Shown: positions 11,690-39,425 of the stretch, piece by piece
How the letters are laid out: each line of letters starts with the position of its first letter
How positions within the stretch are numbered: the stretch's first letter is position 1
Assembly: GCA_016928875.1 (NCBI GenBank)
Contig: JAFGJY010000089.1
Location: 3,625-67,624 of the forward strand
Source: Candidatus Omnitrophota bacterium
Lineage (GTDB): Bacteria > Omnitrophota > Omnitrophia > JAHJGZ01 > JAFGJY01
Length of the DNA: 64,000 nucleotides
Reading direction: 5' to 3'
Notes under the pieces: model-generated
Database searches by the model: none
Seen by the model: only the letters and a program-made list of their open reading frames with translations
Told to the model about the DNA's origin: nothing
Translations under genes and position numbers: made by a program

Positions 11690-12781
11690 CTACCTCTTCT
11701 TTCGCAATAGCATTTTCTGAACTATGAGTTTCATGACGACGAAAGACGGCGGTACGCACCGTTCGCAGATAGCGAATGAACGTATCCCTTTTCGAAACTC
11801 TTCCCGTACACGCCGATAGCGTTCACCGTTCCATATGCTTGCAAATGGTTTTTGCAGGCAATTCCCAAGCGACGGAGCGTCTTTATCCCACACAAATACG
11901 GGACATGGCTTTACATTTCCTTTAACATCGATAAAGGCAGAGACCCATGGGAAATGGCACGTGATCCTATTGGGTATAAATTCATCCCGAGCCAACATCT
12001 TGTTATGAAGAGATTTCATGTGACGCATCCAATTATCAATATTCGTCGCAATTCCGTACCAGTCGGCTTTTCTCTTTGTCTCCGTGAGAATATCGGTCAA
12101 TTCTTGAATGCCTATACCGCATAACTCTTTTTTCATATCTTCAACGCTAAAATAATTAAGGTCCTGCACGTATACCATTTTCACATCGAATTCCTTTGCC
12201 AGTTCAATAAAACACGGAAGCTCATAAACATTTTCCTTCTCGAGACAGAAATTGAACCGTATCTCCGGTTTTGTAATGGACCTCTCTTTTTTGAGAGTAT
12301 TAATCAGTTTGATATTATTAATAACAACGTTAAATCTATCACATTGACGCACTTTTTTATAAACATCGGATGATGCCGCATCAAACGATACCTTTATCTG
12401 ATCGATCTCGCTATCGACCAATTTTTCGATAGCGCTCGACGACACCACTAAATTAGTCGGAAAATTAACGACACTACCCCGTTCAACGCAATATCGGATC
12501 ATTGTAAATATATCCGGGTTCAGCAAGGGCTCCCCGAGACCGCTCAAATTTATATTACGTGGCCGTATCTGATCATAGATCTTAACAAAATCATCAAATT
12601 TCATATGTAACGGTGTTTGCACAATAGACCGCCTGCCGCACGCAAGACAATTGAGGTTACAATAAGTCGTCACCTCGACCTGAACATGTTCGGGCATCGC
12701 AAACGCATTTACCGATTTCACTATCGCTTGAAAATAATTAAGACCAGAACGAACAATGTGTTTCATATTACGTATATTCAT
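11690..12781 (-). CDS. Radical SAM enzyme with C-terminal SPASM/twitch-like Cys cluster
   Basis: TTYCNLNCLACG (CxxxCxxC). C-terminus CHFPWVSAFIDVKGNVKPCP...GNC...CERCVPP. Paralogue of 57535..58557. Confidence 0.8.
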   Translation of the reverse strand: MNIRNMKHIVRSGLNYFQAIVKSVNAFAMPEHVQVEVTTYCNLNCLACGRRSIVQTPLHMKFDDFVKIYDQIRPRNINLSGLGEPLLNPDIFTMIRYCVERGSVVNFPTNLVVSSSAIEKLVDSEIDQIKVSFDAASSDVYKKVRQCDRFNVVINNIKLINTLKKERSITKPEIRFNFCLEKENVYELPCFIELAKEFDVKMVYVQDLNYFSVEDMKKELCGIGIQELTDILTETKRKADWYGIATNIDNWMRHMKSLHNKMLARDEFIPNRITCHFPWVSAFIDVKGNVKPCPVFVWDKDAPSLGNCLQKPFASIWNGERYRRVREEFRKGIRSFAICERCVPPSFVVMKLIVQKMLLRKKR

Positions 12782-14021
12782 TTACCTGTTTCGCAACCCT
12801 TTGTACGTTACAAATAACAGCTTTAAATTTATTCAGATCATTCTTAGGTATAGCATTAACGGTCATTATCCTAAATGTTAGTCCCGGCAGCTTATCTCTA
12901 ATGCATTCTGTAAAGCTTTCGATACTAAATGGACTATGAACGACCATAAACAGATCCGCTTCACCTTTTGTATCTTGAACAACTCTAAACGCTTTTACAT
13001 TCTTTTCTAAAGTAATTACATTTATAATGGCACATGGCGAAACAAGATCATCGTTCTTCAATACTAAAAAATCATCTTTGCGCCCCTGAATGGAAATAAT
13101 ATGCCTGAACGGTTTATCGCGGCTGTCATCACCAATCTCAACGATGTCTCTCAAATTATATTTTATCAGCGGCATCGCGAATTGATCAAGCGTAGTAACG
13201 ATCAACTCATTATCGTTATTAACTTCGAAAAAATATGCATCCTCGTTAAGATATAGTTTTCCGTCTTTGCTGTCTTCAAAGGCAAGCCGCCCCACTTCTC
13301 TCGCGCCATAATGCTCTTTAACTTTGGTCAAGAACTTCTCTTCTATAAATCTCTTGGTCTCGGCATCCAACATCTCTCCTAGCGCAATGACTGTTTTAAC
13401 ATGCAATGAGTTACCATCGACGATCTTGGCTATCTCACGGATATTGCTGGGAAACCCTACCAAGACCGATGGTTTATATTCCATAATTTGCTTCAATACA
13501 TAATCCGGGCTACGTACGCCATCTACAGCTTTCTTTCTGAATACACATAACTTAGCAAGAAGATTACTGCGAGGCTCATAAACAGCATCGCAATTGAACA
13601 TCTTCAAGAATGGATTATATCCTGAACACAGTAAGCTGCGTAATCGTATCGTATTTTTTTTGATAAATTCTCTTCGTGTTAAATAACAATCGAAACGCTT
13701 ACCCGAAGATCCGGATGTTGATTCGGCCTTTAATTCCGAGAGGACATACTCTCTTGTTATTAGATCGCTAACATTTCTAGCTAAAAGGTCATCTTTGCTT
13801 GATACAGGGATCTTTGAGTATAGTTCTTGAACTTGGCTAAGGCTCAGATCCTTACCAACAAATAATCCTGCCTTTTTAAAGAGATCACGATAGTAAGGTA
13901 CGTGCTTAGCAGCATAACATATAACTTTATTAAGCTTCCTCAGCTGCAATACACGCAACTCCTTACGCGACAGGAATAGATTCCTTACCGATAACACGAA
14001 AGATAAAAGTTTATAGATCAT
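12768..14021 (-). CDS. Phenylacetate-CoA ligase-like adenylate-forming enzyme
   Basis: ESTSGSSGKRF motif; 417 aa; overlaps the downstream radical SAM gene by 14 nt. Confidence 0.7.
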   Translation of the reverse strand: MIYKLLSFVLSVRNLFLSRKELRVLQLRKLNKVICYAAKHVPYYRDLFKKAGLFVGKDLSLSQVQELYSKIPVSSKDDLLARNVSDLITREYVLSELKAESTSGSSGKRFDCYLTRREFIKKNTIRLRSLLCSGYNPFLKMFNCDAVYEPRSNLLAKLCVFRKKAVDGVRSPDYVLKQIMEYKPSVLVGFPSNIREIAKIVDGNSLHVKTVIALGEMLDAETKRFIEEKFLTKVKEHYGAREVGRLAFEDSKDGKLYLNEDAYFFEVNNDNELIVTTLDQFAMPLIKYNLRDIVEIGDDSRDKPFRHIISIQGRKDDFLVLKNDDLVSPCAIINVITLEKNVKAFRVVQDTKGEADLFMVVHSPFSIESFTECIRDKLPGLTFRIMTVNAIPKNDLNKFKAVICNVQRVAKQVNEYT

Positions 14022-14039: not shown

Positions 14040-15278
14040 CTAAGATTTATCAATACTATTTTTAACGACCTTATACTTCCCGTTCTTCTCAAGCTCTATT
14101 GACTCGCATCGTTCTATATCAACCTGCATAGTATGATGCGTTGTATCCTCAATGATCTTACGAACCTCATCACCGGCAGTATCATTATCCGTGATCACCT
14201 TAATGAACAGCGCATCGTAAGAGGTTTGCACGATCTGATATTTTAAAAGTCCTGCGATATATTCGATCGAGGTTGTTAATCGAAATGCTTCTATTAATTC
14301 ACCTGTTGGCAAATAAATGTTATCTGATGCTCTCCCACCGTATATCTTAAGCAAAGCAAGTGTCCGCCCACATGAACACGGCGTATCGATGAGCATTCCC
14401 TTATCCTGTGTATTAAAGCGAATAAGCGGCATGGCTTTATTATTTAGGTCCGTAACAACAATATCACCGATCTCTCCTGTAGCTACTGGGACGCCATCCT
14501 TCACGATCTCGCAGATCACTTCATCTTCATTAATATGATATCCTTCATGCCGCTCACATTCCCAGGCGATCTCTTTAAATTCGGTCGATCCATATACATC
14601 AAACACCTCTGCACGGAACGTTTTCTCGATATATGATCGTACCGGTTTTTCCAGATATTCCGAACTCGTAAAGATCAAACGCACGCTATCTATAGGTATA
14701 CCGTCCCTCTCCATCTCTCTCGCCAGGCGGAAGAGATAATTAGGCATACTATATATGATAGTCGGTTTACGGGTTCTTATCTTTTGTATCGTTATGGATA
14801 GCGGATCGAATATCGAAAATGCTCTCAGGTTCAAAAAAGGAAAGAGCAAAGCGAATAAACGATTTTTTTTCTTTAGCGCCTGGTCGCCGTCAGTATCGAT
14901 TATAGACACACGATCGCCAAAACGCATACCACATGCCCGTCGTGCTCGATATTTAACCCAGTATTTTTTCATGAACCATGAACGTCTATCAAAATATGTA
15001 TAAAACGGTTCACCTGTCGAACCGCTGGAACGGCTTTTTAAGCATCTCCGCTTGTCATACAATGGATGCAAACATCTATCACGTACGACGGATTTGTCCA
15101 CTATCGGCAGAGACGTAAGATCCCTCATGGTATGTACAACATCAGCATTGATGCCGTGCCTGTCATATAGCTCTTTATAGAACGGCACTTCCTGCACACA
15201 AAGCAGAAATTGTGCCCTTAATTTCTTGTTGCGCAATTCATCTAATTCCTCACGGGACGTATAAATGATGTTGTTCAT
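14040..15278 (-). CDS. Phenylacetate-CoA ligase-like adenylate-forming enzyme
   Basis: SRSSGSTGEPF motif, ..YGSTE.. and ..RFNTQD.. core motifs; 412 aa. Confidence 0.75.
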   Translation of the reverse strand: MNNIIYTSREELDELRNKKLRAQFLLCVQEVPFYKELYDRHGINADVVHTMRDLTSLPIVDKSVVRDRCLHPLYDKRRCLKSRSSGSTGEPFYTYFDRRSWFMKKYWVKYRARRACGMRFGDRVSIIDTDGDQALKKKNRLFALLFPFLNLRAFSIFDPLSITIQKIRTRKPTIIYSMPNYLFRLAREMERDGIPIDSVRLIFTSSEYLEKPVRSYIEKTFRAEVFDVYGSTEFKEIAWECERHEGYHINEDEVICEIVKDGVPVATGEIGDIVVTDLNNKAMPLIRFNTQDKGMLIDTPCSCGRTLALLKIYGGRASDNIYLPTGELIEAFRLTTSIEYIAGLLKYQIVQTSYDALFIKVITDNDTAGDEVRKIIEDTTHHTMQVDIERCESIELEKNGKYKVVKNSIDKS

Positions 15279-21473: not shown

Positions 21474-22421
21474 TCATTCCAACCACTGCGAGAGATCCCG
21501 CCCAATGAGCGATTGCAATTTTATAATATCGTCATGAAATATATTTATAAGACGCTGACGCGTTCTTTGCGGAAACTCGATTTTTCTTTTTTTTGCCATA
21601 ACAAAGTATTTACTTATCGTATCACGCGTTTTTCTCGATAGGATCGGCCTCAAGAGATCTCTTAGGCCATGTGATTTTGTCCAAATCAATCGCAATAACG
21701 GATTTTCAATGACGCCCGACACATTAAACTTTTCTCTCATGTCAGGAACAAAAGATTCTTCTACATTGAGGAACCGAAAAATATCTCTTAATACCATCTC
21801 TGGCGTTGCAATAAAATCATCGAATAAGTGAATAGACAGCTGTTCTTTTTTAAAAAGACGTAAATACACTGCCAATTGCGCACCATAAAAAGCGCTATAT
21901 AAATACGTATTTAACATCCATCCTTCCTCTATGCGGCGCTTCTCATCGTCAAGTGCCTCCTCAAGGGTCCGGCACGGTTCGTAACCATCACGAATTGCCA
22001 TGCTAAATGAGGAAAATACCCGTTCTATAGGATTACGCAAAATACAAATGAGTTTTACGTCCGGAATGGTTTTCTGTATTCGTTCTGCCGTACCCGGAAC
22101 CCATAAATACGTCGGTGAATTCTCTCCTATAGCACGCTCATGAGATACACCCTCAAACAATGCATGATAGTCTGCTTCTTTCCAAATCACATCATTATTA
22201 AATAGTTCCGCCCGCGGTCCGTTAAATGCCGGCTTTTTTCCGCCAAACGTAAAATAGTGAGTTTCTTTCACCGGCGCCATATAAATGTCCGGATGTTGCG
22301 CGAGATAATGATACAAAGAAGTCGTGCCTGACTTTCCCGCGCCGATAATCAGAAATGTAGGTACTCGTTTTTTCACATTATTTCCCTTGATAGACAAGAG
22401 GGGCAGATCTGACGATAACAA
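21474..22421 (-). CDS. PAPS-dependent sulfotransferase
   Basis: FLIIGAGKSGTTSLYHYL (5'-PSB loop) and ILRNPIERVFSSF (3'-PB motif). An alternative GTG start at 22376 lies just after the upstream stop. Confidence 0.8.
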   Translation of the reverse strand: MLSSDLPLLSIKGNNVKKRVPTFLIIGAGKSGTTSLYHYLAQHPDIYMAPVKETHYFTFGGKKPAFNGPRAELFNNDVIWKEADYHALFEGVSHERAIGENSPTYLWVPGTAERIQKTIPDVKLICILRNPIERVFSSFSMAIRDGYEPCRTLEEALDDEKRRIEEGWMLNTYLYSAFYGAQLAVYLRLFKKEQLSIHLFDDFIATPEMVLRDIFRFLNVEESFVPDMREKFNVSGVIENPLLRLIWTKSHGLRDLLRPILSRKTRDTISKYFVMAKKRKIEFPQRTRQRLINIFHDDIIKLQSLIGRDLSQWLE

Positions 22422-23631
22422 CGCGTATTCTCCTTCTTCCTCGCCGTTTCATAAAATCACTGGCAAAATCATCCCAGGCCCGGATCACCGTAGCGTTCTT
22501 GAACGAGCGTTGCAGCTCCTCATCCCGCAAAACCGACGATATGACGCTGAATCGCACGCTGAATTTCCGCAGCATCTTTACTATGTTAAATACACGTTCG
22601 GGGAGACAGAGCATCTCCTTAGTCGAAAAATGAGCGAGCCGGCGCTTGAGACGCTGCATGAAGGGTTGTTTTGTAGAAAAGAGTTCATGCCCACCCATCC
22701 CGTCTCTGCATTCTGCCAAAACCACCTTTTCCGTAGCAGTACCATAATGGAAAAGCGGCCAAAAGGCACGGTCCATAGCAAGGTTCACAGTACGGTCGCA
22801 TGGGTAGGTATCGATGATAAGCAGATCAACTGCACGCGGCAACTTCACGCTATGATGAGACCGTACATATTTAACCGCCTCTTTGAAACTCGACTCTGGA
22901 TCACCGCAAAAAAGTTCTACGATCTCTCTTTTACTGTTTATGATGACGTTCGCTGATAGATCAAGCCCGACCATCCCCGCGATCTCGTTTATGGTCGCGC
23001 GAAATTCGGTTTCTATCTTTCCCGCGCGCTGCTTACACCCCCGGCATTCATCATGTAATGCCCGGATCGTTTCGTATCCGCACACGCCCGGAGCGACTAT
23101 CTTGTTCCCGCCCGAGAACCCCGCTGCCGGATGCGGTACAACACAGCTTACGCCGATCCTAAGATCAGCCTCATAGACATGTTTGTTGACGCTCACGGGT
23201 ATGCCGTTAGAAGAAATACCCAACTGAACGCAATCATTACGACAGTCATGCGGGATGACCTTAAAACGCTCATGCATCGCCTCCCCGATCTTACTGCGCA
23301 TCATCGTTTCGCTATCAGGCGCATGTGTTCCATGCGATACGACAAAAAAGATGTTCTCATCGCGTATCCCCGTATCATGCAAACACGTCACAATATGCGT
23401 CACGATCACATTGGCCGGCGTCGGACGACTGGAGTCATCCACGATGATGCACGCACTTTTTTTATTACACGCACTCGCCATAACCTTATCGCTGAGACGC
23501 ACGATAATATCTTCGGTCGCTAATCGCTGTTTCGTCAAATTCCCCACGACAGTAACATCCCACGTCTTAGGCAGATCAAGGATTGTAGCAATATCTTTAT
23601 CCGCATCAGAATAAACGTAATTATACTGCAC
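22378..23631 (-). CDS. LarA-like (nickel-pincer-dependent lactate racemase family, DUF2088) protein
   Basis: IIVDDSSRPTP, VVSHGTHAP, and VVPHPAAGFSGGNKIVAPG (conserved Lys in the GGxK context); 417 aa. Confidence 0.7.
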   Translation of the reverse strand: MQYNYVYSDADKDIATILDLPKTWDVTVVGNLTKQRLATEDIIVRLSDKVMASACNKKSACIIVDDSSRPTPANVIVTHIVTCLHDTGIRDENIFFVVSHGTHAPDSETMMRSKIGEAMHERFKVIPHDCRNDCVQLGISSNGIPVSVNKHVYEADLRIGVSCVVPHPAAGFSGGNKIVAPGVCGYETIRALHDECRGCKQRAGKIETEFRATINEIAGMVGLDLSANVIINSKREIVELFCGDPESSFKEAVKYVRSHHSVKLPRAVDLLIIDTYPCDRTVNLAMDRAFWPLFHYGTATEKVVLAECRDGMGGHELFSTKQPFMQRLKRRLAHFSTKEMLCLPERVFNIVKMLRKFSVRFSVISSVLRDEELQRSFKNATVIRAWDDFASDFMKRRGRRRIRVVIVRSAPLVYQGK

Positions 23632-24937
23632 GATTCCTCTCTCTCAATCTCCCATATAATGATGCATAATCTCTTCGCACTTTATTTGTCAATTCATTGG
23701 ACAGATCATGCAATAATGAACGCACCGTGGCTCTGTCAGAATACAACGCATCGATATGAGACATCAACATATCGTAATGGTCCGCGTCAAGACGGGGTAT
23801 CGGCTTTATTGGGTAGTCGAACGACGCAAACATACCATCGATCTTGATCGTTTGCGGTGATATCGGCACCACCGGAGTATGGGCAAGGATCGAAAAGATC
23901 GCTGCATGATACCTATCGGTGACAACCAGATCAAAGTATGCCATTAGATCTTTCATTTCCGGATAATCGTACATTCTCGACAATGTCTTAAAGCGGCATT
24001 TCCCGCTTAATCCCTGTGCTATGTTATTATCATGAGCAATACAAGTACTGAGGACCCAGATCTGTTTCGTATAGCGCTTCCCTACCTCCTCTACCGCGCG
24101 ACTCCATAATTCAAGGTCTTGCGCACGATCGCCACGAATTATGAAAGCAATGTCTCCTTTTTCAACCCCCTCTCGCTCAGCGATGACCGCAACATCTTCA
24201 TGGGGAATATACGGTGCCGCAAAGGCGGAATCGCACGATGCGATGACCTTTTCCTGTGAAATCCCAAGTTCGATAAGCCGCTCCGAAGACCACGGCTCTC
24301 TTGTAACATGCATATCGAATAATGAATACACCGCTTTTATGACATTACGCGCTACAGGATGGCTTACGTCAACCGTCTGATTCAGCGAAATAACAGGTTT
24401 CCCTATTCTCTTAGCCAGATAGCACTCGAAAAGGCCTGTGACCATGTAATGCCGTAATCGATCTGATAGTAGACCTGCACCATTGTAAACAGCAACATCG
24501 GCAGCTTTAACAGCCTCGATAAAACGGCGCGCAAAATGTGCACGAAATACGAGTGGTAAGATCGTCTCGAACAATCCGCGGCTGTATTTCTTGCGGAACA
24601 CGTTCTCAAACGCATTCATAATCGGACTATTAAGTACATATTTGGAATTTAATATTTTCACTATCGCTGTCTCAACTGCGATACGTACGTTACTATAATT
24701 TAGAATGCGATCCGCGAAACGATCAAAAGACTTTAGCACATCCTCGGGTGTCGCCTGTTTCGGCAATACACTGATATTGATGTATGGAAACACCTTCCAG
24801 CCTGCCGAACGGATTTCACCATGCATCTGCTCACGCAGGAGCACCAAAGTTCCTTCTGTGAGTGCGCGGTCGCCGAGATTTATCAGGCTCTGTCGCAATC
24901 CCGTACGATCGCTTAAAATAATATATTTCTTTTTCAT
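23621..24937 (-). CDS. Polysaccharide pyruvyl transferase family protein
   Basis: C-terminal VVTDRYHAAIFSILAHTPVVPI signature (R-x-H-x-x-I) and a Rossmann-like N-terminus. Confidence 0.7.
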   Translation of the reverse strand: MKKKYIILSDRTGLRQSLINLGDRALTEGTLVLLREQMHGEIRSAGWKVFPYINISVLPKQATPEDVLKSFDRFADRILNYSNVRIAVETAIVKILNSKYVLNSPIMNAFENVFRKKYSRGLFETILPLVFRAHFARRFIEAVKAADVAVYNGAGLLSDRLRHYMVTGLFECYLAKRIGKPVISLNQTVDVSHPVARNVIKAVYSLFDMHVTREPWSSERLIELGISQEKVIASCDSAFAAPYIPHEDVAVIAEREGVEKGDIAFIIRGDRAQDLELWSRAVEEVGKRYTKQIWVLSTCIAHDNNIAQGLSGKCRFKTLSRMYDYPEMKDLMAYFDLVVTDRYHAAIFSILAHTPVVPISPQTIKIDGMFASFDYPIKPIPRLDADHYDMLMSHIDALYSDRATVRSLLHDLSNELTNKVRRDYASLYGRLRERNRAV

Positions 24938-24985: not shown

Positions 24986-26071
24986 CTATTCGGCAAGCAA
25001 TTTCTGATAGATATCAATATGCGCGTTCAGAGCGGTATTCATCTCGAAGGTCTTGGCTATCTCTCTTTGTCCTTCATCGCCAAGCCCCCTCCATCTATCG
25101 TTCTCCAAAAGGTAGCGTAGGCCTGCATCAAAATCATCACCAACCGCCCTATACCCATACTTTGAGGCATATTCATTAGGATCAACATAACTCAATAATG
25201 CACATTTATGTGCCAATGCCTCAATAAAAGCATTTGGCAGACCCTCACGTACCGCTGTGTTTACTAGGATCCAACTCTGTGACAAAAGCTCTGAAACCTT
25301 GTCTGAATTAAATTGATCGATAAAACCCAATATTTCCAGGTTTTTTAAATATCTATATTTCCCCACTAAATACCTTTCCCATTTTTTATCCCGCGACGTA
25401 CCTGCCAATAGAAATCTAACATGCGGGAATTTCTCGGCCAATTGCAGAAAAAGCTCAGGTCTCTTCCGTCTATCAAGACGTGCAAGATAGCATACCGTGG
25501 GCGTATTCGCCTTTTTGATCATATTTGGCAATAAAACAGGTGTAGGTAAAAACACCGGGGCCTCTTTTAGTTTATATACACGCATGGATTTTTCGCATAA
25601 ACATTCAGCGGCACAATACAAGCCGTCAAACTTCTGTAACGAACGATCTATAATAAAGTTATTCTCGAATATGCGGTTCAAAAGCACCTGTACTTTGCTC
25701 AGCGAATGGTCTTTATATTCGATATACCAATCTTCACTATCACGGGGATCTCTGAATGTTACGATGTGTTTCTTGCGTGGCCTAGCAATATGCGCCAGAA
25801 CTGAGATTAACGATGGTTCTTCGGAATGATAAATATCAGCATCGATCGTCTTCGCGTATTTAATTACCGCGAGCAGATCGTACGGCTTGAATCCGGAGAC
25901 CTTAATACCATCGAGCTCTTCATATTCATTCTGCCCTACGCGTCGTGGTACGATCGCGTACACATCGATACCGCGCTGAACGAGTTCCCGCCCGATCGTA
26001 CGCGTCGCACGGCCGAATCCGCCATACTTCCCCCATGCAAATATCTCGGTACACAAAAAGCATATTTTCAT
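24986..26071 (-). CDS. Glycosyltransferase family 4; paralogue of 28474..29577
   Basis: MKICFLCTEIFAWGKYGGFGRATRTIGREL.. versus MKVCLICVEIFAWGKMGGFGSATRTIARSL..; C-terminus ..VNTAVREGLPNAFIEALAHKCALLS. Confidence 0.8.
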   Translation of the reverse strand: MKICFLCTEIFAWGKYGGFGRATRTIGRELVQRGIDVYAIVPRRVGQNEYEELDGIKVSGFKPYDLLAVIKYAKTIDADIYHSEEPSLISVLAHIARPRKKHIVTFRDPRDSEDWYIEYKDHSLSKVQVLLNRIFENNFIIDRSLQKFDGLYCAAECLCEKSMRVYKLKEAPVFLPTPVLLPNMIKKANTPTVCYLARLDRRKRPELFLQLAEKFPHVRFLLAGTSRDKKWERYLVGKYRYLKNLEILGFIDQFNSDKVSELLSQSWILVNTAVREGLPNAFIEALAHKCALLSYVDPNEYASKYGYRAVGDDFDAGLRYLLENDRWRGLGDEGQREIAKTFEMNTALNAHIDIYQKLLAE

Positions 26072-26086
26072 ATAGTAATGGTCTTC

Positions 26087-27241
26087 CTATGTAACATGAT
26101 ACTTAATGCGATCGATAAAATCGCTATGTTGTTTAAGAGCTTCGGCACATTTTTGCGCAACATGTGGGGCAGTGTCCCGCACCCATTGTTCCTGTATTTC
26201 TTCACACGTACGTTTAAATCCTGTTATATCAAACCCCTCCATGAGCGTATTCTGATAGCACTGCGTAACACCGAATTCCTTAAGCAAACTATATATTTTA
26301 CTTTGGTCAATGCTCTGCGGCATGAATGGCTCGGTAGCAACGAATGGAATATTGTTCTTAAGACACATGACAGAACAATGGAATCGATCCGTTATACAAA
26401 AACTCAGTTTCTTAAAGAATGCAGCCCATTCATAGGGATCAACGCTGTGCCCTATGTTATAATCAGCAAACCTATTAAACATGTTGAAATTAAGTATGAT
26501 ATACCCCTTATCTCTATAATGTGTTGCGATATTAGCTGAAAACATAGGCTGACCGTATAATAAAAGCCCTAATATTGGTCTATCACCTGCTATCCCATAT
26601 TTACGCAAGATATCATCATCGTATTCGGGATACTCATACATGAACGCCGGATCGGCTATTCTTGAGACAGGGACCTCTTTATCGACCTTCGCTTCAAGCA
26701 TCATTGTCATAGTGATATCATCGCGCACACTGATCAACTTATATGAGCTCAATATTCGTCGTACCTGATCTTTATATTTACGGAAAATAGTAAGGTCTGA
26801 ACGATGGCCTGATATTGCATAAGCGATCTTTATTGCACTAATATCGCTTGCTAACCAATAAATATTCGGAAAGCGAGGGACAAACCACTTTGTCGAAAAA
26901 TCCCACAGCACTTTTGCTACTATAAGGGCATCATATGCACGTGAATGCATCTCACGTATATGTGACTCATATGTGCCGGTTACCGGGAAATTATCGATCA
27001 ACAGATTGTCATACTCAAAGTCAATTATCTTCTTGTATCTTCTCAGATTATAGAACGGTATTTTCATATTAGGCTTCATTGCCCGCAGGATCTCATATCC
27101 ATACCGATGTATAGATAAATGCCTGATGAAACGGACATCATAGTCGGGGGAACATCTTGCAAGCATGCGATTCAAAGCATTATTGAATATGCTCGACCCA
27201 TGATTAGCATCAACGGTCGTAAGTACGCCTATTTTTTTCAT
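26087..27241 (-). CDS. Polysaccharide pyruvyl transferase family protein
   Basis: CITDRFHCSVMCLKNNIPFVA signature; 384 aa. Confidence 0.65.
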   Translation of the reverse strand: MKKIGVLTTVDANHGSSIFNNALNRMLARCSPDYDVRFIRHLSIHRYGYEILRAMKPNMKIPFYNLRRYKKIIDFEYDNLLIDNFPVTGTYESHIREMHSRAYDALIVAKVLWDFSTKWFVPRFPNIYWLASDISAIKIAYAISGHRSDLTIFRKYKDQVRRILSSYKLISVRDDITMTMMLEAKVDKEVPVSRIADPAFMYEYPEYDDDILRKYGIAGDRPILGLLLYGQPMFSANIATHYRDKGYIILNFNMFNRFADYNIGHSVDPYEWAAFFKKLSFCITDRFHCSVMCLKNNIPFVATEPFMPQSIDQSKIYSLLKEFGVTQCYQNTLMEGFDITGFKRTCEEIQEQWVRDTAPHVAQKCAEALKQHSDFIDRIKYHVT

Positions 27242-27258: not shown

Positions 27259-28473
27259 TTATTTTTTAAATAACGACTTCCACAAAAGGCGTGAATATCG
27301 TGCATTGATCAGCCCGGCGGGGAGTTGTTCATAGGTACGCGCATCTGTGCCTGCGCGTGGCTGGAATTTATATATTTCGACAAAATCAAAAGGCATTCTC
27401 TCTATCAACGCCTCGGTAGCTTTAAAATCGGCATCTGTTTCACCGGGGAAACCCACCATTATCTGTGAACGTACCTTAAGATGCGGATACCGTTCCTTCA
27501 ACAGCAAAATAGCATCTACGTATTCTTTTACTCCATGACTTCTTCGCATGCGTGCTAAAACTGAATCGCTGCCTGCTTCGATCGCTGAACAGAGTGTCGT
27601 GATCTTTCCGCTCTTGAGAACATCCAGCAAACCCGGAAGCATCTCAATAAGATACTTTGGATGTAAATTACGCAGCATGATCTCATAATCACCCTCGCGG
27701 CGTATCATTTCACGTAACAGATCCACTAATGTATGCCCTTCGTCTCGCCCGTATGCTCCGACATCCGTCCCGATTAAAAATATCTTTTTGTACCCTTGGC
27801 GCAATCCGTTCTCAAACTCATTGATCACCTTATCGATCGGCTTACTCTGAAGGTGTTTGCGTGATAACTTGACCGCACAAAACGAGCAGCTGCTCATACA
27901 CCCGCTTGATACTTTGATCGGGAAAACTCCCTTTGTATAAACGCCCGTATCACGGTTACCTCTTTTCATGTCAAGTATCTTTTTTATCACTTTTGAAAAT
28001 GTGGTAAACTCCAGCATGAATTCGACAAGATACTCCATTTTTGCCATTATGTTTTTATACGGATCATCTTTATAGAGGTCTGATCTGTCATTTATCCGAT
28101 CGGAATAACGATTAGCAGTGACCCGCGTACAGACTTCCGTCTCTTGTAATAATTCTTTGACATTCGGCAGTAAATCACTTTGATCCGGCAAATATTTTCG
28201 TTCTATAAGCGAACTGTTGATCTTAGGCAAGCACCCCCAAACATAAATTTTTGCATCTTTTTTCTTCAATAAAGCCAGCTCCTTAATAATGCTCATCGAA
28301 TACCTTTCAGCCTCATTCGTAAGCCCGCACGCATTAAACAATATCAGATCAGCCGCCTGGGCATTAGATGCCAGTTCCCATCCTTGCGCATGCATCTGTT
28401 CCTCGACATACGCACAGTCTAAGCGGTTTTCGGGACAACCGTTCGTAAATATATACACTGATCTATTATTCAT
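27259..28473 (-). CDS. MiaB/RimO-like radical SAM protein (methylthiotransferase N-domain + radical SAM core, no TRAM domain)
   Basis: N-domain Cys triad (TNGC.., FNACG, VWGC) with MTTase-like spacing. SSGCMSSCSFCAV is the CxxxCxxC motif. The protein ends shortly after the radical SAM core. Confidence 0.7.
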   Translation of the reverse strand: MNNRSVYIFTNGCPENRLDCAYVEEQMHAQGWELASNAQAADLILFNACGLTNEAERYSMSIIKELALLKKKDAKIYVWGCLPKINSSLIERKYLPDQSDLLPNVKELLQETEVCTRVTANRYSDRINDRSDLYKDDPYKNIMAKMEYLVEFMLEFTTFSKVIKKILDMKRGNRDTGVYTKGVFPIKVSSGCMSSCSFCAVKLSRKHLQSKPIDKVINEFENGLRQGYKKIFLIGTDVGAYGRDEGHTLVDLLREMIRREGDYEIMLRNLHPKYLIEMLPGLLDVLKSGKITTLCSAIEAGSDSVLARMRRSHGVKEYVDAILLLKERYPHLKVRSQIMVGFPGETDADFKATEALIERMPFDFVEIYKFQPRAGTDARTYEQLPAGLINARYSRLLWKSLFKK

Positions 28474-29577
28474 TTAGCCCACCGTTCCAGTGTTCGATCC
28501 TAATAGGTTTTCATAAAGTGTAATATGTTGGGTAATAACTATATCCAAAGACACGTGCTTATTTACAAACTCATATCCGCGTTCTCCGCATACCCTCCAC
28601 CTATCATCGTCTAACAGATAACGTATTCCCGCAGAATAGTCTTCATTATCAACGACTTTTCCGAATCGCGATGTGAAGCCGTCGGGATCCACAGAACTTA
28701 CTATCGCGCACCTATGCGCGGCTGCTTCTTCAAATGAAATAGGTAACGCTTCCTTCGCCGATGTATTTACCATTATCCAACTTTTACTCAATATTTTCGT
28801 AAGCCTATCTGAAGTGAACTGATCGATAAAACCTGTCATTTCGAGATTCGGCACATGCTTGTATTTATTTCTTATCCGCGCATCTACTTCTTTATCCTGT
28901 GCACTGCCGGTAGCAATAAAATTAATATCTGGCATCTTTGCCGCAAGCTGCAGAAACAGTTCCGGCCGTTTGACGCGATCCCATCGTCCGATAAAGCACA
29001 CTGTTGGAGTAGCGGATTTCTGAACGAATTCCGGCACCTCAACCGGATTAGGCATGAATCGAGGCGCACGATCAAGTTTGTATTTTTTATGTGCTTTATT
29101 GATCACGAGATCTGCCGCCGCACACAGTGCGTCTGCCTTTTTTACACATCCGCGTACGATCGGATTGTCCTCAAAAAGTATGTTTGACAGCACCTGTAAT
29201 TTATTGCGTGATGGATGAGTAAGCTCGGTGAGCCAATCGCTCAACACTCTTGTGTCTTGAAATGTGACCACATGCTTTTTCTCAGGCATCGACCGCATCG
29301 CTAAATATGTCGCGAATGATGGCTCTTGCGAATGATATATATCTGCATCACACTCTTTAAAGATCGTACGCGCATAGAATGGATCGTGCCGCGGATAGCT
29401 ATACACCGTAAAATTATCGAGCACCTCGACTTCTTTTTGATCTCGTCGTCGAGGCACCACCACACAAACATCGAGTCCGCGCGTTTTCAGCGAGCGCGCT
29501 ATAGTACGTGTCGCGCTGCCAAAACCACCCATCTTGCCCCACGCGAATATTTCCACACAGATCAAACAAACTTTCAT
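28474..29577 (-). CDS. Glycosyltransferase family 4; paralogue of 24986..26071
   Basis: See the 24986..26071 entry; the two are collinear along their full length. Confidence 0.8.
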   Translation of the reverse strand: MKVCLICVEIFAWGKMGGFGSATRTIARSLKTRGLDVCVVVPRRRDQKEVEVLDNFTVYSYPRHDPFYARTIFKECDADIYHSQEPSFATYLAMRSMPEKKHVVTFQDTRVLSDWLTELTHPSRNKLQVLSNILFEDNPIVRGCVKKADALCAAADLVINKAHKKYKLDRAPRFMPNPVEVPEFVQKSATPTVCFIGRWDRVKRPELFLQLAAKMPDINFIATGSAQDKEVDARIRNKYKHVPNLEMTGFIDQFTSDRLTKILSKSWIMVNTSAKEALPISFEEAAAHRCAIVSSVDPDGFTSRFGKVVDNEDYSAGIRYLLDDDRWRVCGERGYEFVNKHVSLDIVITQHITLYENLLGSNTGTVG

Positions 29578-30545
29578 GGCTTTATCACTCTCTGCTTCGG
29601 TTTATCGATAAGTTCAAGAACTCCGCCAACTAGCGATAAGATCGCGTTTTTGAGTAATATTAAGAATGAGAATGACAGCGCCAATGCCGGCACAATACCG
29701 AACTGCTCCATCATCACCACAAGGCTCGCTTCGCGAACACCTAAATTGCCGATCGAGATAGGCAGCATACCCAAAACTATTACCACAGACCGAATCCATG
29801 CCATGTCACTATATGAAACAGATATTGAAACAGCATGCGCCATAATAAGGAGTACGCCAATGCCGAGAAACTGTCTAACGACCGAATTGCCCAGTATATG
29901 AAGATGCGTTCGCAGGGGCAATTCATGCAACCGGGTAACGATCGTAAAGAGCTTTTCGATCTTCACTCGAATAAAATGCGGCAGAAAGCCGATGTTTGCA
30001 ACAAGCAGCTTGGCAACCCCAAGCATCCTCTCGCTAAAAGCACTGCAATACAGGGCAATGAATATCACACTTATTCCGATCAGTATCCATACTGTGGTAT
30101 AAAGTGCATTGCTGAGCAAATACGGGATCATAAATATGGCCCCAACGATGAAAACACTGCCTAATTCTATAAATCGGTTAAGAACGATGCTGATAAACAA
30201 CTCTGCCGGTCGTTTTATATACTGTTGCATCTTGACCCACTTTACTGCGCCACCGGCTAAATAACCCGGTAAGAACGAGGAATAAAATGTCGTGATAAGA
30301 TTTATTTTCAGGATCGTGACTGTTGGCAAGTCTATGGCAAACGGAAGGTTCAACACCCTGAACTGAAGCGCTGCTAAGTAACAACAAATAAGGTGTAATA
30401 TGAACGCTATACTATAAAGAACAAGGTCAGTCGTTCGTAAGGTTAGCCAAATATCAGCAAAGGGAACTTTGGTGAAAAGATACCATAGCAACCCACCCGA
30501 TATCAGGATCTTGACCACATACGACAGTGCCTTTTTATATTTCAT
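29574..30545 (-). CDS. UPF0104 / lysyl-PG-synthase-TM-region-like 'flippase-like' membrane protein
   Basis: 323 aa, about 8 TM segments. N-terminus KK..VKILISGGLLWYLF..V.F..I; 4-nt overlaps with both flanking GT4 genes. Confidence 0.6.
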   Translation of the reverse strand: MKYKKALSYVVKILISGGLLWYLFTKVPFADIWLTLRTTDLVLYSIAFILHLICCYLAALQFRVLNLPFAIDLPTVTILKINLITTFYSSFLPGYLAGGAVKWVKMQQYIKRPAELFISIVLNRFIELGSVFIVGAIFMIPYLLSNALYTTVWILIGISVIFIALYCSAFSERMLGVAKLLVANIGFLPHFIRVKIEKLFTIVTRLHELPLRTHLHILGNSVVRQFLGIGVLLIMAHAVSISVSYSDMAWIRSVVIVLGMLPISIGNLGVREASLVVMMEQFGIVPALALSFSFLILLKNAILSLVGGVLELIDKPKQRVIKP

Positions 30546-31669
30546 GATTTTCCGTGCTTTTTAGCGCTGTGATAGACTCTTAAATATTTCTCACAAACAA
30601 TATCCCAGCTAAACATCTTCTCTAATCGTTCACGAGCTTTTTTGCCAAGGGCAGTCCGCAATGCATCATCCTCTATCAATTTCACTAAAGCTCTTCTAAT
30701 TTCATCACTGCTCAGCGGTTGGACAAGGAGTGCCGCATCGCCTACAACTTCGGCACAGCCTGTGCCGCGCGTCGTTATTATCGCCATCTCTGCTGACATT
30801 GCTTCCAGGAGAACGATCGGAAAGTTTTCCATTGATGATGTGAAAACAAATATGCTCGACGTTTCGTATAATTCCTTTAATGTGGGGCCCTTATTATCAA
30901 GATGCCCCCAAAACGTAACAGCAACACCGTGTTTTTGTGCAAGGGCTTTGAGATCCTCTAAATATGGTCCATCACCGACAATATTAACTGCATGATCGAT
31001 CGGAAGTGAAGAAAGCGCCCGTATCAAGAACTGCACCCCCTTGCGTTCGAACATTCTGGTAACGACAAGAATGCTTTTTTCTTTCTTCACCTGCGGTGAA
31101 TATTTGTCTATATATATGCCGTTATTAATAACTTCTGTTCTGGCTTTTTTATGATGTGACACTACGAGCGTACGCAATCCGTTACTCGGACACACGATCA
31201 GGTCTACAGAGCGCACTATTATCTGCCATAGCGGATATAAGATCATATGCAGGACCTTAAATCGGTCAGGATTATACCCCGGGACATCAGAACCATGAGT
31301 GGTCACGACAACCGGCACGCGTGTGAGCAACGTCAGCATAAACGATATTATTCCATCCGGATAGATAAAATGCGTGTTAATAATATCATATTTCTTTGTC
31401 TTCATAAGTTTCAGCGCGCATGGAATAGCACACAGCACATACGGTATCATCTCAAACGGCGAACACACCGCTATATTCTTACGTGCCACCATGATCCTAT
31501 GCAATCGCACACCATTGACCGTCTCTTCTTTTTTTAGGCCATGACATCCCATGGTGACTATATCAATACTATGCCCTCGTCGCGTCAATTCTGTTGATAG
31601 ATCGTGCACCACTTTTGCCCCGCCACCGCCTAATGGCGGGAATTCATAGCAAAGTATCAGTATATTCAC
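30542..31669 (-). CDS. Glycosyltransferase family 4
   Basis: MNILILCYEFPPLGGGGAKV; C-terminus ..FTSSMENFPIVLLEAMSAEMAIITT. Confidence 0.85.
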   Translation of the reverse strand: MNILILCYEFPPLGGGGAKVVHDLSTELTRRGHSIDIVTMGCHGLKKEETVNGVRLHRIMVARKNIAVCSPFEMIPYVLCAIPCALKLMKTKKYDIINTHFIYPDGIISFMLTLLTRVPVVVTTHGSDVPGYNPDRFKVLHMILYPLWQIIVRSVDLIVCPSNGLRTLVVSHHKKARTEVINNGIYIDKYSPQVKKEKSILVVTRMFERKGVQFLIRALSSLPIDHAVNIVGDGPYLEDLKALAQKHGVAVTFWGHLDNKGPTLKELYETSSIFVFTSSMENFPIVLLEAMSAEMAIITTRGTGCAEVVGDAALLVQPLSSDEIRRALVKLIEDDALRTALGKKARERLEKMFSWDIVCEKYLRVYHSAKKHGKS

Positions 31670-39158: not shown

Positions 39159-39382
39159 ACATTATTCCTGACCTTTTCTTTTATCGCCCTATACGTTGTC
39201 ATCTGTTGTATTTCAGCCATCGTGAATTTCATCGAAAACTCGTTTTCAAGCGCTGTGATCATACGTAAATGTGTCATCGAATCCCAATCACCATGAGACA
39301 CCTGGGAAAAATCGTCATTAATAGACTTTACATCAATATCAAAAAAATCCGCCAGAAATTCTTTTAATTGGTCTTCCATCAT
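39146..39382 (-). CDS. Acyl carrier protein
   Basis: 78 aa with GDWDSMTHLRMITALENEF (the DS phosphopantetheine-attachment Ser context). The last codons VGGW-stop are encoded by the CACCAACC-word block. Confidence 0.85.
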   Translation of the reverse strand: MMEDQLKEFLADFFDIDVKSINDDFSQVSHGDWDSMTHLRMITALENEFSMKFTMAEIQQMTTYRAIKEKVRNNVGGW

Positions 39383-39425
39383 ATACCTCGTAAGTCGTAA
39401 AATGTAATTCGTAAAAAGTTAATTG

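What the first reader, a model, noticed from the sequence alone, without database searches (positions are those of the whole stretch)
22378..23631. LarA-like (nickel-pincer racemase family) homologue embedded among pyruvyl transferases and a sulfotransferase
**Seen in the sequence**
- The 417-aa protein carries DSSRPTP, SHGTH and PHPAAGFSGGNK motifs.

**Established knowledge**
- LarA uses a covalently Lys-tethered nickel-pincer nucleotide cofactor made by LarB/C/E.
- LarA homologues have been shown to racemise or epimerise various 2-hydroxy acids.

**Inference**
- The context includes two ketal-pyruvyl transferases downstream and an FkbH/ACP pair that can deliver glyceryl or lactyl units.
- This enzyme might therefore epimerise a 2-hydroxy-acid substituent (lactyl or glyceryl) or a sugar-acid C2. 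That would be a new role for the family in glycan tailoring.
- No larB/C/E genes are in the window.
Basis: partly seen in the sequence, partly recalled or inferred. Interest (0 to 1): 0.6.

Follow-up and report, generated by a model that had tools for sequence, protein, structure and literature searches.

The report
Nickel-pincer LarA-type epimerase in glycan loci
This gene encodes a genuine relative of the nickel-dependent lactate racemase LarA, and it belongs to an undescribed branch of that family that, in at least six bacterial phyla, sits inside gene clusters for cell-surface glycoconjugates, which points to a new, still untested job for the nickel-pincer cofactor.

Summary
Window 22378-23631 (-) encodes a 417-aa LarA-superfamily protein (Pfam Lar_N 5e-44; AF2 model pLDDT 91.8, TM 0.79 to holo-LarA). 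Every catalytic and cofactor residue is kept: D66, R69, H103, H167, K177 (cofactor tether) and H193 (Ni ligand).

It matches no characterised subfamily; the best NCBIfam hit is malate racemase at 220 bits against a cut-off of 500. It belongs to a monophyletic clade (NJ bootstrap 94/100) in which the LarA motif Y294-Q295-x-V297-K298 is replaced by F/L-A-x-D-R.

The clade is linked to glycan genes. 23 of 26 distinct clade loci have an orthologue of the window's GT4 at 28474-29577 nearby, usually with a flippase-like LPG_synthase_TM protein. About nine loci also have a translationally coupled pyruvyl transferase. None of 57 loci of more distant LarA homologues has these neighbours (P~1e-17).

One clade locus (L027) carries a complete larB-larE-larC operon inside the cassette. 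The window has no larBCE, and the rest of this MAG could not be searched.

Best reading: an NPN-dependent epimerase/racemase that serves as an accessory module of a GT4-based glycoconjugate pathway. The substrate is unknown.

The parts
22378..23631 (-). LarA-superfamily (nickel-pincer nucleotide-type) epimerase/racemase homologue of the glycan-linked clade, 417 aa
   Evidence: Pfam Lar_N 5e-44. AF2 pLDDT 91.8 with Foldseek TM 0.79 to holo-LarA. D66, R69, H103, H167, K177 and H193 align to LarA D72, R75, H108, H174, K184 and H200 and are 93/93 conserved in the clade. Clade bootstrap 94/100.
23621..24937 (-). Pyruvyl transferase PvT1, translationally coupled upstream gene; its stop lies 11 nt inside the LarAH gene
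   Evidence: Pfam PS_pyruv_trans 5.8e-27 and NCBIfam CsaB 65 bits, below cut-off. Junction sequence. The same PvT1-like then LarAH order occurs in a second Omnitrophota MAG.
24986..26071 (-). GT4a, a paralogue of GT4b (47% identity)
   Evidence: Pfam Glycos_transf_1 / Glyco_transf_4. Falls in cluster C1 with GT4b. BLASTP 46.8% over 361 aa.
26087..27241 (-). Pyruvyl transferase PvT2, orthologue of the PvT that directly follows the LarAH in compact cassettes elsewhere
   Evidence: Pfam PS_pyruv_trans 3.3e-22. Cluster C7 found in 9 loci, jackhmmer about 600-650 bits.
27259..28473 (-). MiaB/RimO-family radical-SAM enzyme inserted in the cassette; specific to this window and not conserved with the clade
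   Evidence: Pfam UPF0004 + Radical_SAM. NCBIfam TIGR00089 242 bits against cut-off 251. No orthologue in other clade loci.
28474..29577 (-). GT4b, the constant partner of the LarAH clade; a highly conserved retaining GT4/GT5-like glycosyltransferase
   Evidence: Orthologue present in 23/26 distinct clade loci and 0/57 distant loci. 51-58% identity across phyla. AF2 pLDDT 91.5; nearest structures are MshA, BshA with L-malate, sucrose-phosphate synthase, GlgM and PimA.
29574..30545 (-). LPG_synthase_TM (HpnL/MprF-type, flippase-like) membrane protein
   Evidence: Pfam PF03706 4e-25. Orthologue clusters C4/C10 occur in 19 clade loci. The Nitrospira orthologue hits HpnL at 157 bits and passes flippase-like TIGR00374 at 65 bits against cut-off 43.
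30542..31669 (-). GT4c, second conserved glycosyltransferase
   Evidence: Pfam GT4. Cluster C2 in 13 loci. Best NCBIfam hit is BshA at 108 bits against cut-off 274, which is only a lead.
21474..22376 (-). Sulfotransferase, downstream gene that starts at the LarAH stop codon
   Evidence: Pfam Sulfotransfer_3 9e-16. Gene call 11256-12158 in L001. Junction sequence. Orthologous sulfotransferases occur in L009 and L091.

Best explanation
The gene encodes a nickel-pincer-nucleotide (NPN)-dependent enzyme of the LarA superfamily. It belongs to a distinct, so far uncharacterised clade that works as an accessory module of a glycoconjugate pathway built around a conserved GT4 glycosyltransferase (GT4b) and a flippase-like LPG_synthase_TM membrane protein.

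Shown here:
- It has the full LarA two-domain fold.
- The NPN-tethering Lys, the Ni-ligand His, both catalytic His and the anion-binding Arg are strictly conserved.
- The clade is monophyletic.
- It is genomically linked to GT4b, LPG_TM, a second GT4, pyruvyl transferase, sulfotransferase and other glycan genes across several phyla.
- A larB-larE-larC operon is embedded in one such cassette.

Inferred:
- Like LarA, it removes a hydride from a carbinol carbon next to an anionic group onto the pincer cofactor and returns it to the opposite face, using His103 and His167 as alternating acid and base. This would invert one stereocentre.
- The preferred substrate class is a 2-hydroxy-acid-type building block, free, phosphorylated or activated (for example of the glycerate, malate or lactate class), that GT4b or its partners then incorporate. 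It could also be the immediate product of that step.
- Because GT4b cassettes also exist without it, it is an optional tailoring or precursor-supply step, not a core step.
- The replaced pocket motif (Y294-Q295-x-V297-K298 becomes F/L-A-x-D-R, and F175-F176 becomes P-A) implies a substrate different from, and probably bulkier than, those of all characterised LarA homologues.
For: Fold and residues:
- Pfam, NCBIfam and PDB hits.
- AF2 model pLDDT 91.8, with Foldseek TM 0.79 to LarA bound to D-lactate.
- HMMER profile and MAFFT alignments both map D72, R75, H108, H174, S180, G181, G182, K184 and H200 to identical residues in 93/93 clade sequences.

Distinct clade:
- Bit-score gap in the homologue search, 231 bits (P0071) to 161 bits (P0074).
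- NJ bootstrap 94/100, with LarA of I. pallida (the one solved enzyme kept in that tree) outside the clade; Mar2 and the L. plantarum and T. thermosaccharolyticum LarAs were dropped from it, but their nearest neighbours are non-clade sequences.
- About 49 of the top 150 representatives at 50% identity carry the clade motif, out of about 2,450 superfamily representatives.

Context:
- The LarAH is followed by an overlapping PvT gene, with GT4b and LPG_TM alongside, in unrelated neighbourhoods.
- Nitrospira-type loci carry an NTP-transferase, a CDP-alcohol transferase, LPG_TM, GT2, GT4c, GT4b, Wzx, GT2, the LarAH and a PMT_2 protein.
- GT4b is nearby in 23/26 clade loci against 0/57 distant loci, P=1.4e-17.
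- Junction sequences in the window show an operon.

Cofactor supply:
- In L027, larB (235 bits against cut-off 175), larE (243/150) and larC (180/90, plus LarC2 at 111/50) lie between the LarAH-GT4b-ligase genes and GT4c.

Accessory status:
- L091 has LPG_TM, GT4b, a sulfotransferase, an unrelated 422-aa protein and PvT, but no LarAH.

Small anionic acceptor:
- GT4b's nearest structures are MshA, BshA with L-malate bound, and sucrose-phosphate synthase.
- GT4c's best NCBIfam hit is BshA.
- The LarAH's nearest characterised relatives are malate racemases.

Roles of the LarA residues are taken from PMC11851776 and PMC7583248.
Against: - No biochemical data exist for any clade member.
- larBCE is absent from the 64-kb window, and the rest of this MAG could not be searched.
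- The larBCE-linked member (L027) belongs to a sub-clade with a different pocket (H-D-[A/G]; W-F-V-x-P-W), so cofactor supply for the main group is extrapolated.
- Q295 and Y294, which bind the carboxylate and the 2-OH in LarA, are lost, so the substrate may not be a classical 2-hydroxy acid.
- No enzyme that obviously makes or activates a hydroxy acid is conserved across the clade. CapK-like ligases and a kinase occur only in some architectures.
- The structural similarity of GT4b to BshA and MshA is only marginally better than to PimA or glycogen synthases.
- The model's coordinates could not be inspected, so pocket geometry is inferred from alignments only.
Confidence: 0.6

Rival explanations
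1. The enzyme acts late, on a sugar- or lipid-linked intermediate, not on a free hydroxy acid. It would epimerise a carbinol next to an anionic handle that is not a simple alpha-carboxylate. Candidates are a sugar hydroxyl near a pyruvate-ketal carboxylate installed by the coupled pyruvyl transferase, an aldonic or furanosiduronic acid residue, or an inositol-phosphate head group of a PIM-like glycolipid.
For: - LarAH and PvT genes overlap in about nine loci.
- Loss of Q295 and Y294, the K298-to-R change and the small P-A loop suggest a larger, differently anchored substrate.
- Invariant W291 and H315 could stack on or bind a sugar.
- In Nitrospira-type loci the CDP-alcohol transferase's best hits are all inositol-phosphate transferases, and GT4b resembles MshA and PimA.
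- GT4b cassettes exist without the LarAH, as expected for an optional tailoring step.
Against: - All characterised LarA homologues act on free 2-hydroxy acids (PMC7583248, PMC11770544).
- PvT is missing from about two thirds of clade loci although the pocket residues are the same as in PvT-type loci.
- The inositol-type hits are far below their cut-offs.
- A ketal C2 has no hydrogen to abstract.
Confidence: 0.22
2. It uses the NPN cofactor for a hydride-mediated reaction that is not a stereoinversion. Examples would be an internal redox isomerisation or hydride shuttling within a glycan precursor, such as converting an enolpyruvyl ether to a lactyl ether at the expense of a neighbouring carbinol.
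For: - Desguin et al. (PMC7583248) note that LarAHs lacking K298-type residues might catalyse other hydride-mediated reactions.
- The substrate-side motif here is rewritten.
- The gene is coupled to a PEP-dependent transferase family.
Against: Both catalytic histidines, which are needed for two-faced proton-coupled hydride transfer, are strictly conserved. K298 is replaced conservatively by Arg, not lost. LarA-fold enzymes offer no precedent for such a reaction.
Confidence: 0.1
3. It is an ordinary metabolic malate or lactate racemase that happens to lie in a polysaccharide cluster, with no functional link to glycan synthesis.
For: The best database hits are malate racemases.
Against: - Scores are less than half of every equivalog cut-off.
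- The signature motifs of malate and lactate racemases (the HYK or HFF loop; YQxxK) are absent.
- The gene neighbourhood is conserved across at least six phyla, and the gene is translationally coupled to glycan genes.
Confidence: 0.05
4. It is a cofactor-less or non-catalytic relic, a pseudo-enzyme or structural subunit, in genomes that cannot make NPN.
For: No larBCE lies in the window or within +/-10 kb of most clade loci.
Against: All NPN-binding and catalytic residues are invariant in 93 sequences that are only 32-38% identical overall, which indicates strong purifying selection on the active site. larBCE is embedded in one clade cassette. lar biosynthetic genes are commonly unlinked to larA homologues.
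Confidence: 0.03

Closest known systems
Malate racemase Mar2 / LarAH6 (Thermoanaerobacterium thermosaccharolyticum; PDB 6d6z, 7s91; NCBIfam NF052593)
   Same: It is the best sequence match (phmmer 5e-38; NCBIfam 219.6 bits). It has the same fold and the same D, R, H, H, K, H catalytic and NPN-binding set.
   Different: The query scores less than half of the 500-bit equivalog cut-off. The loop after the second His is Y-K in Mar2 and P-A here. Mar2 has Y-Q-A-Q-K where the query has L-A-M-D-R. Mar2 falls outside the clade by distance: its nearest neighbour is a non-clade sequence, and it was dropped from the bootstrapped tree by the occupancy filter. Mar2-type genes are metabolic, and its relatives do not have the glycan neighbourhood.
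Lactate racemase LarA (Lactiplantibacillus plantarum 5huq/6c1w; Isosphaera pallida 9eia/9eid)
   Same: Same two-domain fold, TM 0.78-0.79. Lys184 tether, His200 Ni ligand, His108 and His174 catalytic pair and Arg75 are all conserved. The proton-coupled hydride-transfer mechanism is presumed to be the same.
   Different: About 20% identity. F175/F176 (or L/M) become P/A, Y294 becomes L/F, Q295 becomes A, V297 becomes D and K298 becomes R. The C-terminal 'PDQW' specificity helix is not recognisable. Pfam LarA_C does not hit the clade. The context is glycan assembly, not the lar operon or lactate metabolism.
Single-histidine LarA-like enzymes (PDB 9q2u, 9q3j, 9q3k; PMC12611868)
   Same: They are LarA-fold NPN enzymes with a rewritten substrate site and a proposed carbohydrate-related role.
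   Different: Those enzymes replace a catalytic His by Asn, are octameric, are about 500 aa long and sit next to glycolytic or sugar-catabolic genes. The present clade keeps both His residues, is about 420 aa long and sits in biosynthetic glycoconjugate loci. Similarity is much weaker (E about 1e-12; TM 0.6-0.68).
BshA/MshA-type GT4 pathways, in which a small anionic acceptor is glycosylated (L-malate in bacillithiol synthesis, inositol phosphate in mycothiol synthesis)
   Same: GT4b's nearest solved structures are MshA and BshA with L-malate bound. GT4c's best NCBIfam hit is BshA. A hydroxy-acid racemase feeding such a GT is chemically sensible.
   Different: Similarities are far below family cut-offs. 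No BshB/BshC or MshB/C/D genes are present. The cassette includes a flippase-like membrane protein, pyruvyl and sulfo transferases, Wzx and GT-C enzymes, so the product is an envelope glycoconjugate and not a cytoplasmic thiol.

Membership tests
[quoted passage not shown] | Lar_N domain and the two-domain LarA fold | tested here: met
   Pfam PF09861 at 150 bits against cut-off 23.3. AF2 pLDDT 91.8 with Foldseek TM 0.79 to 9eia and 6c1w.
LarA superfamily | Lysine that tethers the NPN cofactor covalently (Lys184 of L. plantarum LarA) in the S-G-G-x-K motif | tested here: met
   K177 within FSGGNK. K is present in 93/93 clade sequences, by both HMMER profile and MAFFT alignments.
LarA superfamily | Histidine ligand of nickel (His200) | tested here: met
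   H193 (TIRALHDE), conserved in 93/93.
LarA superfamily | Two catalytic histidines (His108 and His174) | tested here: met
   H103 (SHGTH) and H167 (VPHP), conserved in 93/93.
LarA superfamily | N-terminal-domain Asp72 and Arg75 (NPN and carboxylate binding) | tested here: met
   D66 and R69 in DDSSRPTP, conserved in 93/93.
LarA superfamily | C-terminal-domain residues binding the carboxylate and 2-OH: Tyr294, Gln295 and Lys298 | tested here: not met
   The query has L284, A285 and R288. In the clade these positions are F in 76/93, A in 75/93 and R in 85/93, whereas distant LarAHs keep Q in 102/130 and K in 119/130. K to R is conservative; Y and Q are lost.
LarA superfamily | NPN biosynthesis genes larB, larC and larE in the same genome | not testable with these tools
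Indirect support: a complete larB/larE/larC operon sits inside the cassette of clade member L027 and next to sister-group LarAHs in L084 and L043.
LarA superfamily | NPN loading and racemase or epimerase activity | not testable with these tools
   This needs expression with larBCE and an assay, for example the Duet system and CD assay of PMC11796402.
Malate racemase, LarAH6 (NF052593) or LarAH5 (NF052595) | Equivalog score cut-off and signature residues (the H-Y/Q-K loop and Y-Q-x-Q-K) | tested here: not met
   219.6 bits against cut-off 500 and 188.7 against 462. The loop is P-A and the motif is L-A-M-D-R.
Lactate racemase LarA (NF033504) | Equivalog score cut-off and the F175/F176 and Y294/Q295/K298 signature | tested here: not met
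   166.7 bits against cut-off 460. Signature residues differ.
Glycan-linked LarAH clade (defined here) | Motif YPxD-x(6-10)-[R/K]-G-x-W-P, an H-P-[A/I/F] loop, and a GT4b orthologue in the neighbourhood | tested here: met
   The query has YPCDRTVNLAMDRAFWP and PHPA. GT4b lies at 28474-29577. The query falls inside the clade supported at 94/100.

The most novel reading that the evidence does not exclude
The clade is the first nickel-pincer (LarA-fold) enzyme family that works in cell-envelope glycoconjugate biosynthesis and acts on something other than a free 2-hydroxy acid. It would epimerise a sugar-, lipid- or phosphate-linked carbinol, such as a pyruvylated or acidic sugar residue or an inositol-phosphate head group, in a GT4b/flippase-dependent glycolipid or lipoglycan pathway shared by Nitrospirota, Chloroflexota, Omnitrophota and other phyla.
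Probability: 0.25. Interest if true: 0.8.

Novelty: new variant of a known kind. Interest (0 to 1): 0.62.

Why it matters
All characterised LarA homologues racemise or epimerise free 2-hydroxy acids in central or catabolic metabolism. A clade that keeps the complete nickel-pincer machinery but has a rewritten substrate site, and that is embedded in glycoconjugate assembly loci in many mostly uncultured phyla, would extend organometallic Ni-pincer catalysis to cell-envelope biosynthesis. In one locus the larBCE cofactor genes sit inside the cassette itself.

It also gives the field a concrete, testable target. It defines a sequence signature and a constant partner enzyme (GT4b) with which to search for the substrate. 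It flags an uncharacterised, highly conserved GT4/flippase-like cassette present in Nitrospira and Chloroflexota. It also suggests that nickel availability could influence surface-glycan structure in these organisms.

Tried and rejected
- **Prior description in the LarAH groups.** I asked whether the clade was already one of Desguin's groups with a glycan context. Searching the 2020 supplements for pyruvyl, polysaccharide, flippase, COG0438, COG2327, COG0392, COG1807 and COG2244 returned nothing relevant. The 2024 JBC paper has no mention of pyruvyl, polysaccharide or glycosyl.
- **Literature.** Full-text searches that combined lactate racemase, DUF2088 or nickel-pincer with pyruvyl, polysaccharide, glycan or glycosyltransferase found nothing pertinent.
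- **FkbH/ACP as the supplier of a glyceryl or lactyl unit.** I rejected this as a general explanation because FkbH is absent from all other clade loci.
- **Pyruvate ketal as the substrate.** Rejected on chemical grounds, because C2 carries no hydrogen.
- **PvT as an obligatory partner.** Rejected: it is present in only about 9 of about 30 loci, while the pocket residues are the same with and without it.
- **The 422-aa protein in L091 as a divergent LarAH.** Rejected: hhalign probability 1% and no Lar_N hit.
- **First tree.** It appeared non-monophyletic. This was traced to two fragments I had mislabelled, L034 (truncated at a contig end) and P0108 (a chimeric partial). It was re-run without fragments.
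- **Partner enzymes against solved structures.** Sequence searches of GT4b and PvT2 against PDB sequences gave no hits.
- **Promoter and terminator scan.** It gave no more sites than shuffled sequence.
- **Not possible.** The AF2 coordinates could not be inspected to measure the pocket.
Full report
**1. The observation**

The minus-strand ORF at 22378-23631 is real. It is 417 aa with a GTG start, and a GAGG-type ribosome-binding site lies 5-8 nt upstream. Its translation contains DDSSRPTP, SHGTH and PHPAAGFSGGNK exactly as reported.

It matches Pfam Lar_N at E=5e-44. It also matches the solved malate racemase Mar2 (5e-38), LarA of Isosphaera pallida (1e-31) and LarA of L. plantarum (1e-22). 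An AlphaFold2 model built on 66 homologues is confident (pLDDT 91.8, pTM 0.91). It superposes on holo-LarA structures over both domains, with Foldseek E=1.5e-33 and TM 0.79.

The gene sits in a tight operon. The upstream pyruvyl transferase ends 11 nt inside it, and the downstream sulfotransferase starts at its stop codon. The 64-kb window is one large glycan-assembly region in which nearly every gene lies on the minus strand. It holds many GT4 and GT2 enzymes, two Wzx-like flippases, a Wzy, two PMT_2 GT-C enzymes, two pyruvyl transferases, a sulfotransferase, FkbH with an ACP-like ORF, four CapK-like ligases and several radical-SAM enzymes. It has no larB, larC or larE. The source is a Candidatus Omnitrophica/Omnitrophota MAG.

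**2. Active-site anatomy**

A profile of the protein's close relatives was aligned by HMMER to L. plantarum LarA. An independent MAFFT alignment included four solved enzymes. The two agree on this mapping:

| LarA (L. plantarum) | Query |
|---|---|
| D72 | D66 |
| R75 | R69 |
| H108 | H103 |
| H174 | H167 |
| S180-G181-G182 | S173-G174-G175 |
| K184 (cofactor tether) | K177 |
| H200 (Ni ligand) | H193 |

All of these are identical in 93 of 93 clade sequences, although overall identity within the clade is only 32-38%.

The substrate side is rewritten:
- The two residues after the second His contact the C-alpha substituent in LarA (PMC11851776). They are P-A here, against F-F in LarA, L-M in I. 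pallida LarA and Y-K in Mar2.
- The C-terminal-domain motif Y294-Q295-x-V297-K298 binds the 2-OH and the carboxylate. It is L284-A285-M-D287-R288 in the query and F-A-x-D-R in the clade consensus.
- More distant LarA homologues keep Q in 102/130 and K in 119/130 sequences.
- The 'PDQW' specificity helix of LarA is not recognisable, and Pfam's LarA_C model does not hit the clade.
- W291 and H315 are conserved residues specific to the clade.

The protein scores below half of every NCBIfam equivalog cut-off. The best is malate racemase LarAH6 at 219.6 bits against a cut-off of 500.

**3. A distinct clade**

The homologue search shows a tier of about 70 clusters at 32-38% identity over the full length. 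More remote LarAHs follow after a drop in score, from 231 bits (P0071) to 161 bits (P0074). In a neighbour-joining tree of 192 sequences the tier is monophyletic with 94/100 bootstrap support. The query lies inside the clade, not as its sister. LarA of I. pallida, the one solved enzyme retained in that tree, falls outside the clade. Mar2 and the two other LarAs were dropped by the occupancy filter, but by distance their nearest neighbours are non-clade sequences.

An exhaustive profile search of 1.84 billion representatives found about 2,450 LarA-superfamily representatives at E<=1e-30. About 49 of the 150 best carry the broader clade signature YPxD...[R/K]G.WP. The clade is therefore a small part of the superfamily, on the order of 2%.

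**4. Gene neighbourhood**

This is the main new result. I examined about 30 clade loci and 57 loci of more distant LarAHs.

An orthologue of the window's GT4 at 28474-29577 (GT4b) lies within the held flank in 23 of 26 distinct clade loci. The three exceptions are truncated contigs. It lies in none of the 57 distant loci (P=1.4e-17). A flippase-like LPG_synthase_TM protein accompanies 19 clade loci and a second GT4 (GT4c) accompanies 13.

Three architectures recur:
- **(a) Compact cassette.** LarAH-PvT-GT4b-LPG_TM, in Chloroflexota/Anaerolineae and in metagenomes. The LarAH and PvT genes overlap, and the flanking genes are unrelated from locus to locus.
- **(b) Nitrospira/Bacteroidota type.** NTP-transferase, CDP-alcohol transferase, LPG_TM, GT2, GT4c, GT4b, Wzx, GT2, LarAH, sometimes an FkbM methyltransferase, and PMT_2. 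The CDP-alcohol transferase's best matches are all inositol-phosphate transferases, below their cut-offs. The GT2 is of the PgfS/ArnC type, a polyprenyl-phosphate-sugar synthase. The LPG_TM protein is HpnL-like. This looks like a membrane-anchored, PIM- or lipoglycan-like pathway.
- **(c) Gemmatimonadota/Steroidobacteraceae type.** Kinase-like protein, LarAH, GT4b and a CapK-like ligase.

The window combines the core (GT4c, LPG_TM, GT4b, PvT2) with a duplicated GT4a-PvT1 pair, the LarAH and a sulfotransferase. GT4a is 47% identical to GT4b. A second Omnitrophota MAG has the same PvT1-like then LarAH order.

GT4b is far more conserved than the LarAH: 51-58% identity across phyla, with more than 1,100 relatives. 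It also occurs without the LarAH. In L091 the order is LPG_TM, GT4b, sulfotransferase, an unrelated 422-aa protein and PvT. The LarAH is therefore an optional accessory of a GT4b-centred system, like the pyruvyl and sulfo transferases.

**5. Cofactor supply**

larBCE could not be searched genome-wide. In clade locus L027 (a Steroidobacteraceae MAG), however, a complete operon lies between LarAH-GT4b-ligase and GT4c. It comprises larB (235 bits, cut-off 175), larE (243 bits, cut-off 150) and larC (180 bits, cut-off 90, plus LarC2 at 111 bits, cut-off 50). Sister-group LarAHs in L084 and L043 also have adjacent lar genes. Together with the invariant tether and Ni-ligand residues, this makes NPN dependence of the clade very likely.

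There is a caveat. L027 belongs to the kinase/ligase sub-clade, whose pocket differs: H-D-[A/G] and W-F-V-x-P-W.

**6. Mechanism**

*Shown:* the fold, the catalytic and cofactor residues, the clade, the linkage and the larBCE embedding.

*Inferred:* proton-coupled hydride transfer as in LarA. That means hydride abstraction from a carbinol carbon adjacent to an anionic group bound by R69 and R288, followed by return of the hydride to the opposite face, with H103 and H167 acting as alternating acid and base.

I favour a 2-hydroxy-acid-type building block or early intermediate as the substrate. The reasons are these:
- Every known family member acts on such acids (PMC7583248, PMC11770544).
- The nearest characterised relatives are malate racemases.
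- GT4b's nearest solved structures include BshA with L-malate bound and MshA, which are GT4 enzymes with small anionic acceptors. GT4c's best family hit is BshA.

These partner similarities are weak leads. The loss of Q295 and Y294, the small P-A loop and the coupling to PvT leave real room for a bulkier substrate linked to a sugar, a lipid or a phosphate. A pyruvate ketal itself cannot be the substrate, because its C2 carries no hydrogen. The FkbH/ACP idea is not supported by conservation.

**7. Comparison and novelty**

The protein meets the defining cofactor and catalytic features of the LarA superfamily. It fails the substrate-binding Y/Q/K feature and the cut-offs of every characterised subfamily. 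It is best described as a new variant of a known kind: a LarA-fold NPN enzyme with a new pocket and a new biological context.

No paper in the searchable library links LarA or DUF2088 to polysaccharide, pyruvyl-transferase or glycosyltransferase loci. The closest precedent for a rewritten LarA site with a carbohydrate role is the single-histidine subfamily (PMC12611868). That subfamily differs in residues, size and context, which is catabolic.

**8. Verdict**

The glycan link is strongly supported by comparative genomics. The specific substrate ideas are untested, and the FkbH link is unsupported.
- Interest is moderate to high. The finding is a clear, testable prediction of a new role for the nickel-pincer cofactor, with a defined sequence signature and partner enzyme, but it has no biochemical evidence yet.

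Noticed in passing
L090 5318-7291 (protein P0085; ENA ERZ27251135 k141_801841): A 657-aa fusion of a CMP-sugar-acid synthetase domain (PF02348 CTP_transf_3) with a LarA-like domain. It sits in a NeuB/NeuC (nonulosonic acid) cluster with SIS, HAD phosphatase and methyltransferase genes. It lies outside the clade studied here, so it is a second, independent recruitment of a LarA homologue to glycan-precursor synthesis.
   Followed up: partly
L027 5692-8537 (Steroidobacteraceae MAG JAYRRR010000133.1): A complete larB-larE-larC operon lies on the opposite strand in the middle of a LarAH-GT4b-CapK-like-ligase ... GT4c cassette. This LarAH sub-clade (also L025 and L028) has a different pocket (H-D-[A/G]; W-F-V-x-P-W) and a kinase-like gene upstream.
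   Followed up: yes
L091 11973-13241 (1.35-Mb contig, ERZ25039514 contig_6205): A 422-aa protein with no Pfam family and no similarity to LarA occupies the position of the LarAH in an LPG_TM-GT4b-sulfotransferase-X-PvT cassette. It may be a non-homologous replacement or an unrelated tailoring enzyme.
   Followed up: partly
window 27259-28473 (-): A MiaB/RimO-family radical-SAM enzyme (UPF0004 + Radical_SAM; 242 bits against cut-off 251 for TIGR00089) is inserted between GT4b and PvT2. This is an odd place for a methylthiotransferase-type enzyme. It is not conserved in other clade loci.
   Followed up: no
window 10420-11685, 12768-14021, 14040-15278, 52412-53779 (all -): Four paralogous CapK/PaaK-like adenylate-forming enzymes lie in one glycan region. 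Related ligases directly follow GT4b in L027 and L028. They could attach carboxylic acids, possibly hydroxy acids, to the glycan.
   Followed up: partly
window 22000-24000: There is a local GC peak over the LarAH gene: 0.506 in the 1-kb window at 22500-23499 and 0.494 for the gene, against 0.417 for the whole window. This may reflect amino-acid constraints or a separate evolutionary origin of the gene.
   Followed up: no
L087 2006-3148 and L086 1-864 (Omnitrophota MAG GCA_042576765.1): P0108 is a LarAH N-terminus of about 145 aa joined to an aminoacyl-tRNA-ligase-related domain. P0002 is a LarAH C-terminal 287 aa at a contig start. Both come from the same MAG and look like one gene split or made chimeric by assembly. 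NCBI names P0108 'amino acid--tRNA ligase-related protein'.
   Followed up: partly
L042-L083 (Candidatus Poribacteria and Caldilineaceae MAGs): Many Poribacteria genomes carry two LarA homologues in tandem or within about 2 kb of each other, with none of the glycan partners. They represent a different, unexamined LarAH system in sponge symbionts.
   Followed up: no
window 39146-39785 (-): Between FkbH (39803-41668) and a 78-aa ACP-like ORF (39146-39382, DSM motif) lies a 119-aa ORF (39426-39785) that, by eye only, resembles the four-helix-bundle proteins found in 23S rRNA intervening sequences. No tool was run on it, and it is an unexpected insertion in an FkbH-ACP pair.
   Followed up: no
window 29574-30545 and 36224-37255 (-): Two divergent LPG_synthase_TM (flippase-like) paralogues lie in one cluster, 25% identical over 113 aa. 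Each is adjacent to glycosyltransferases, which suggests two separate lipid-linked branches in this region.
   Followed up: no
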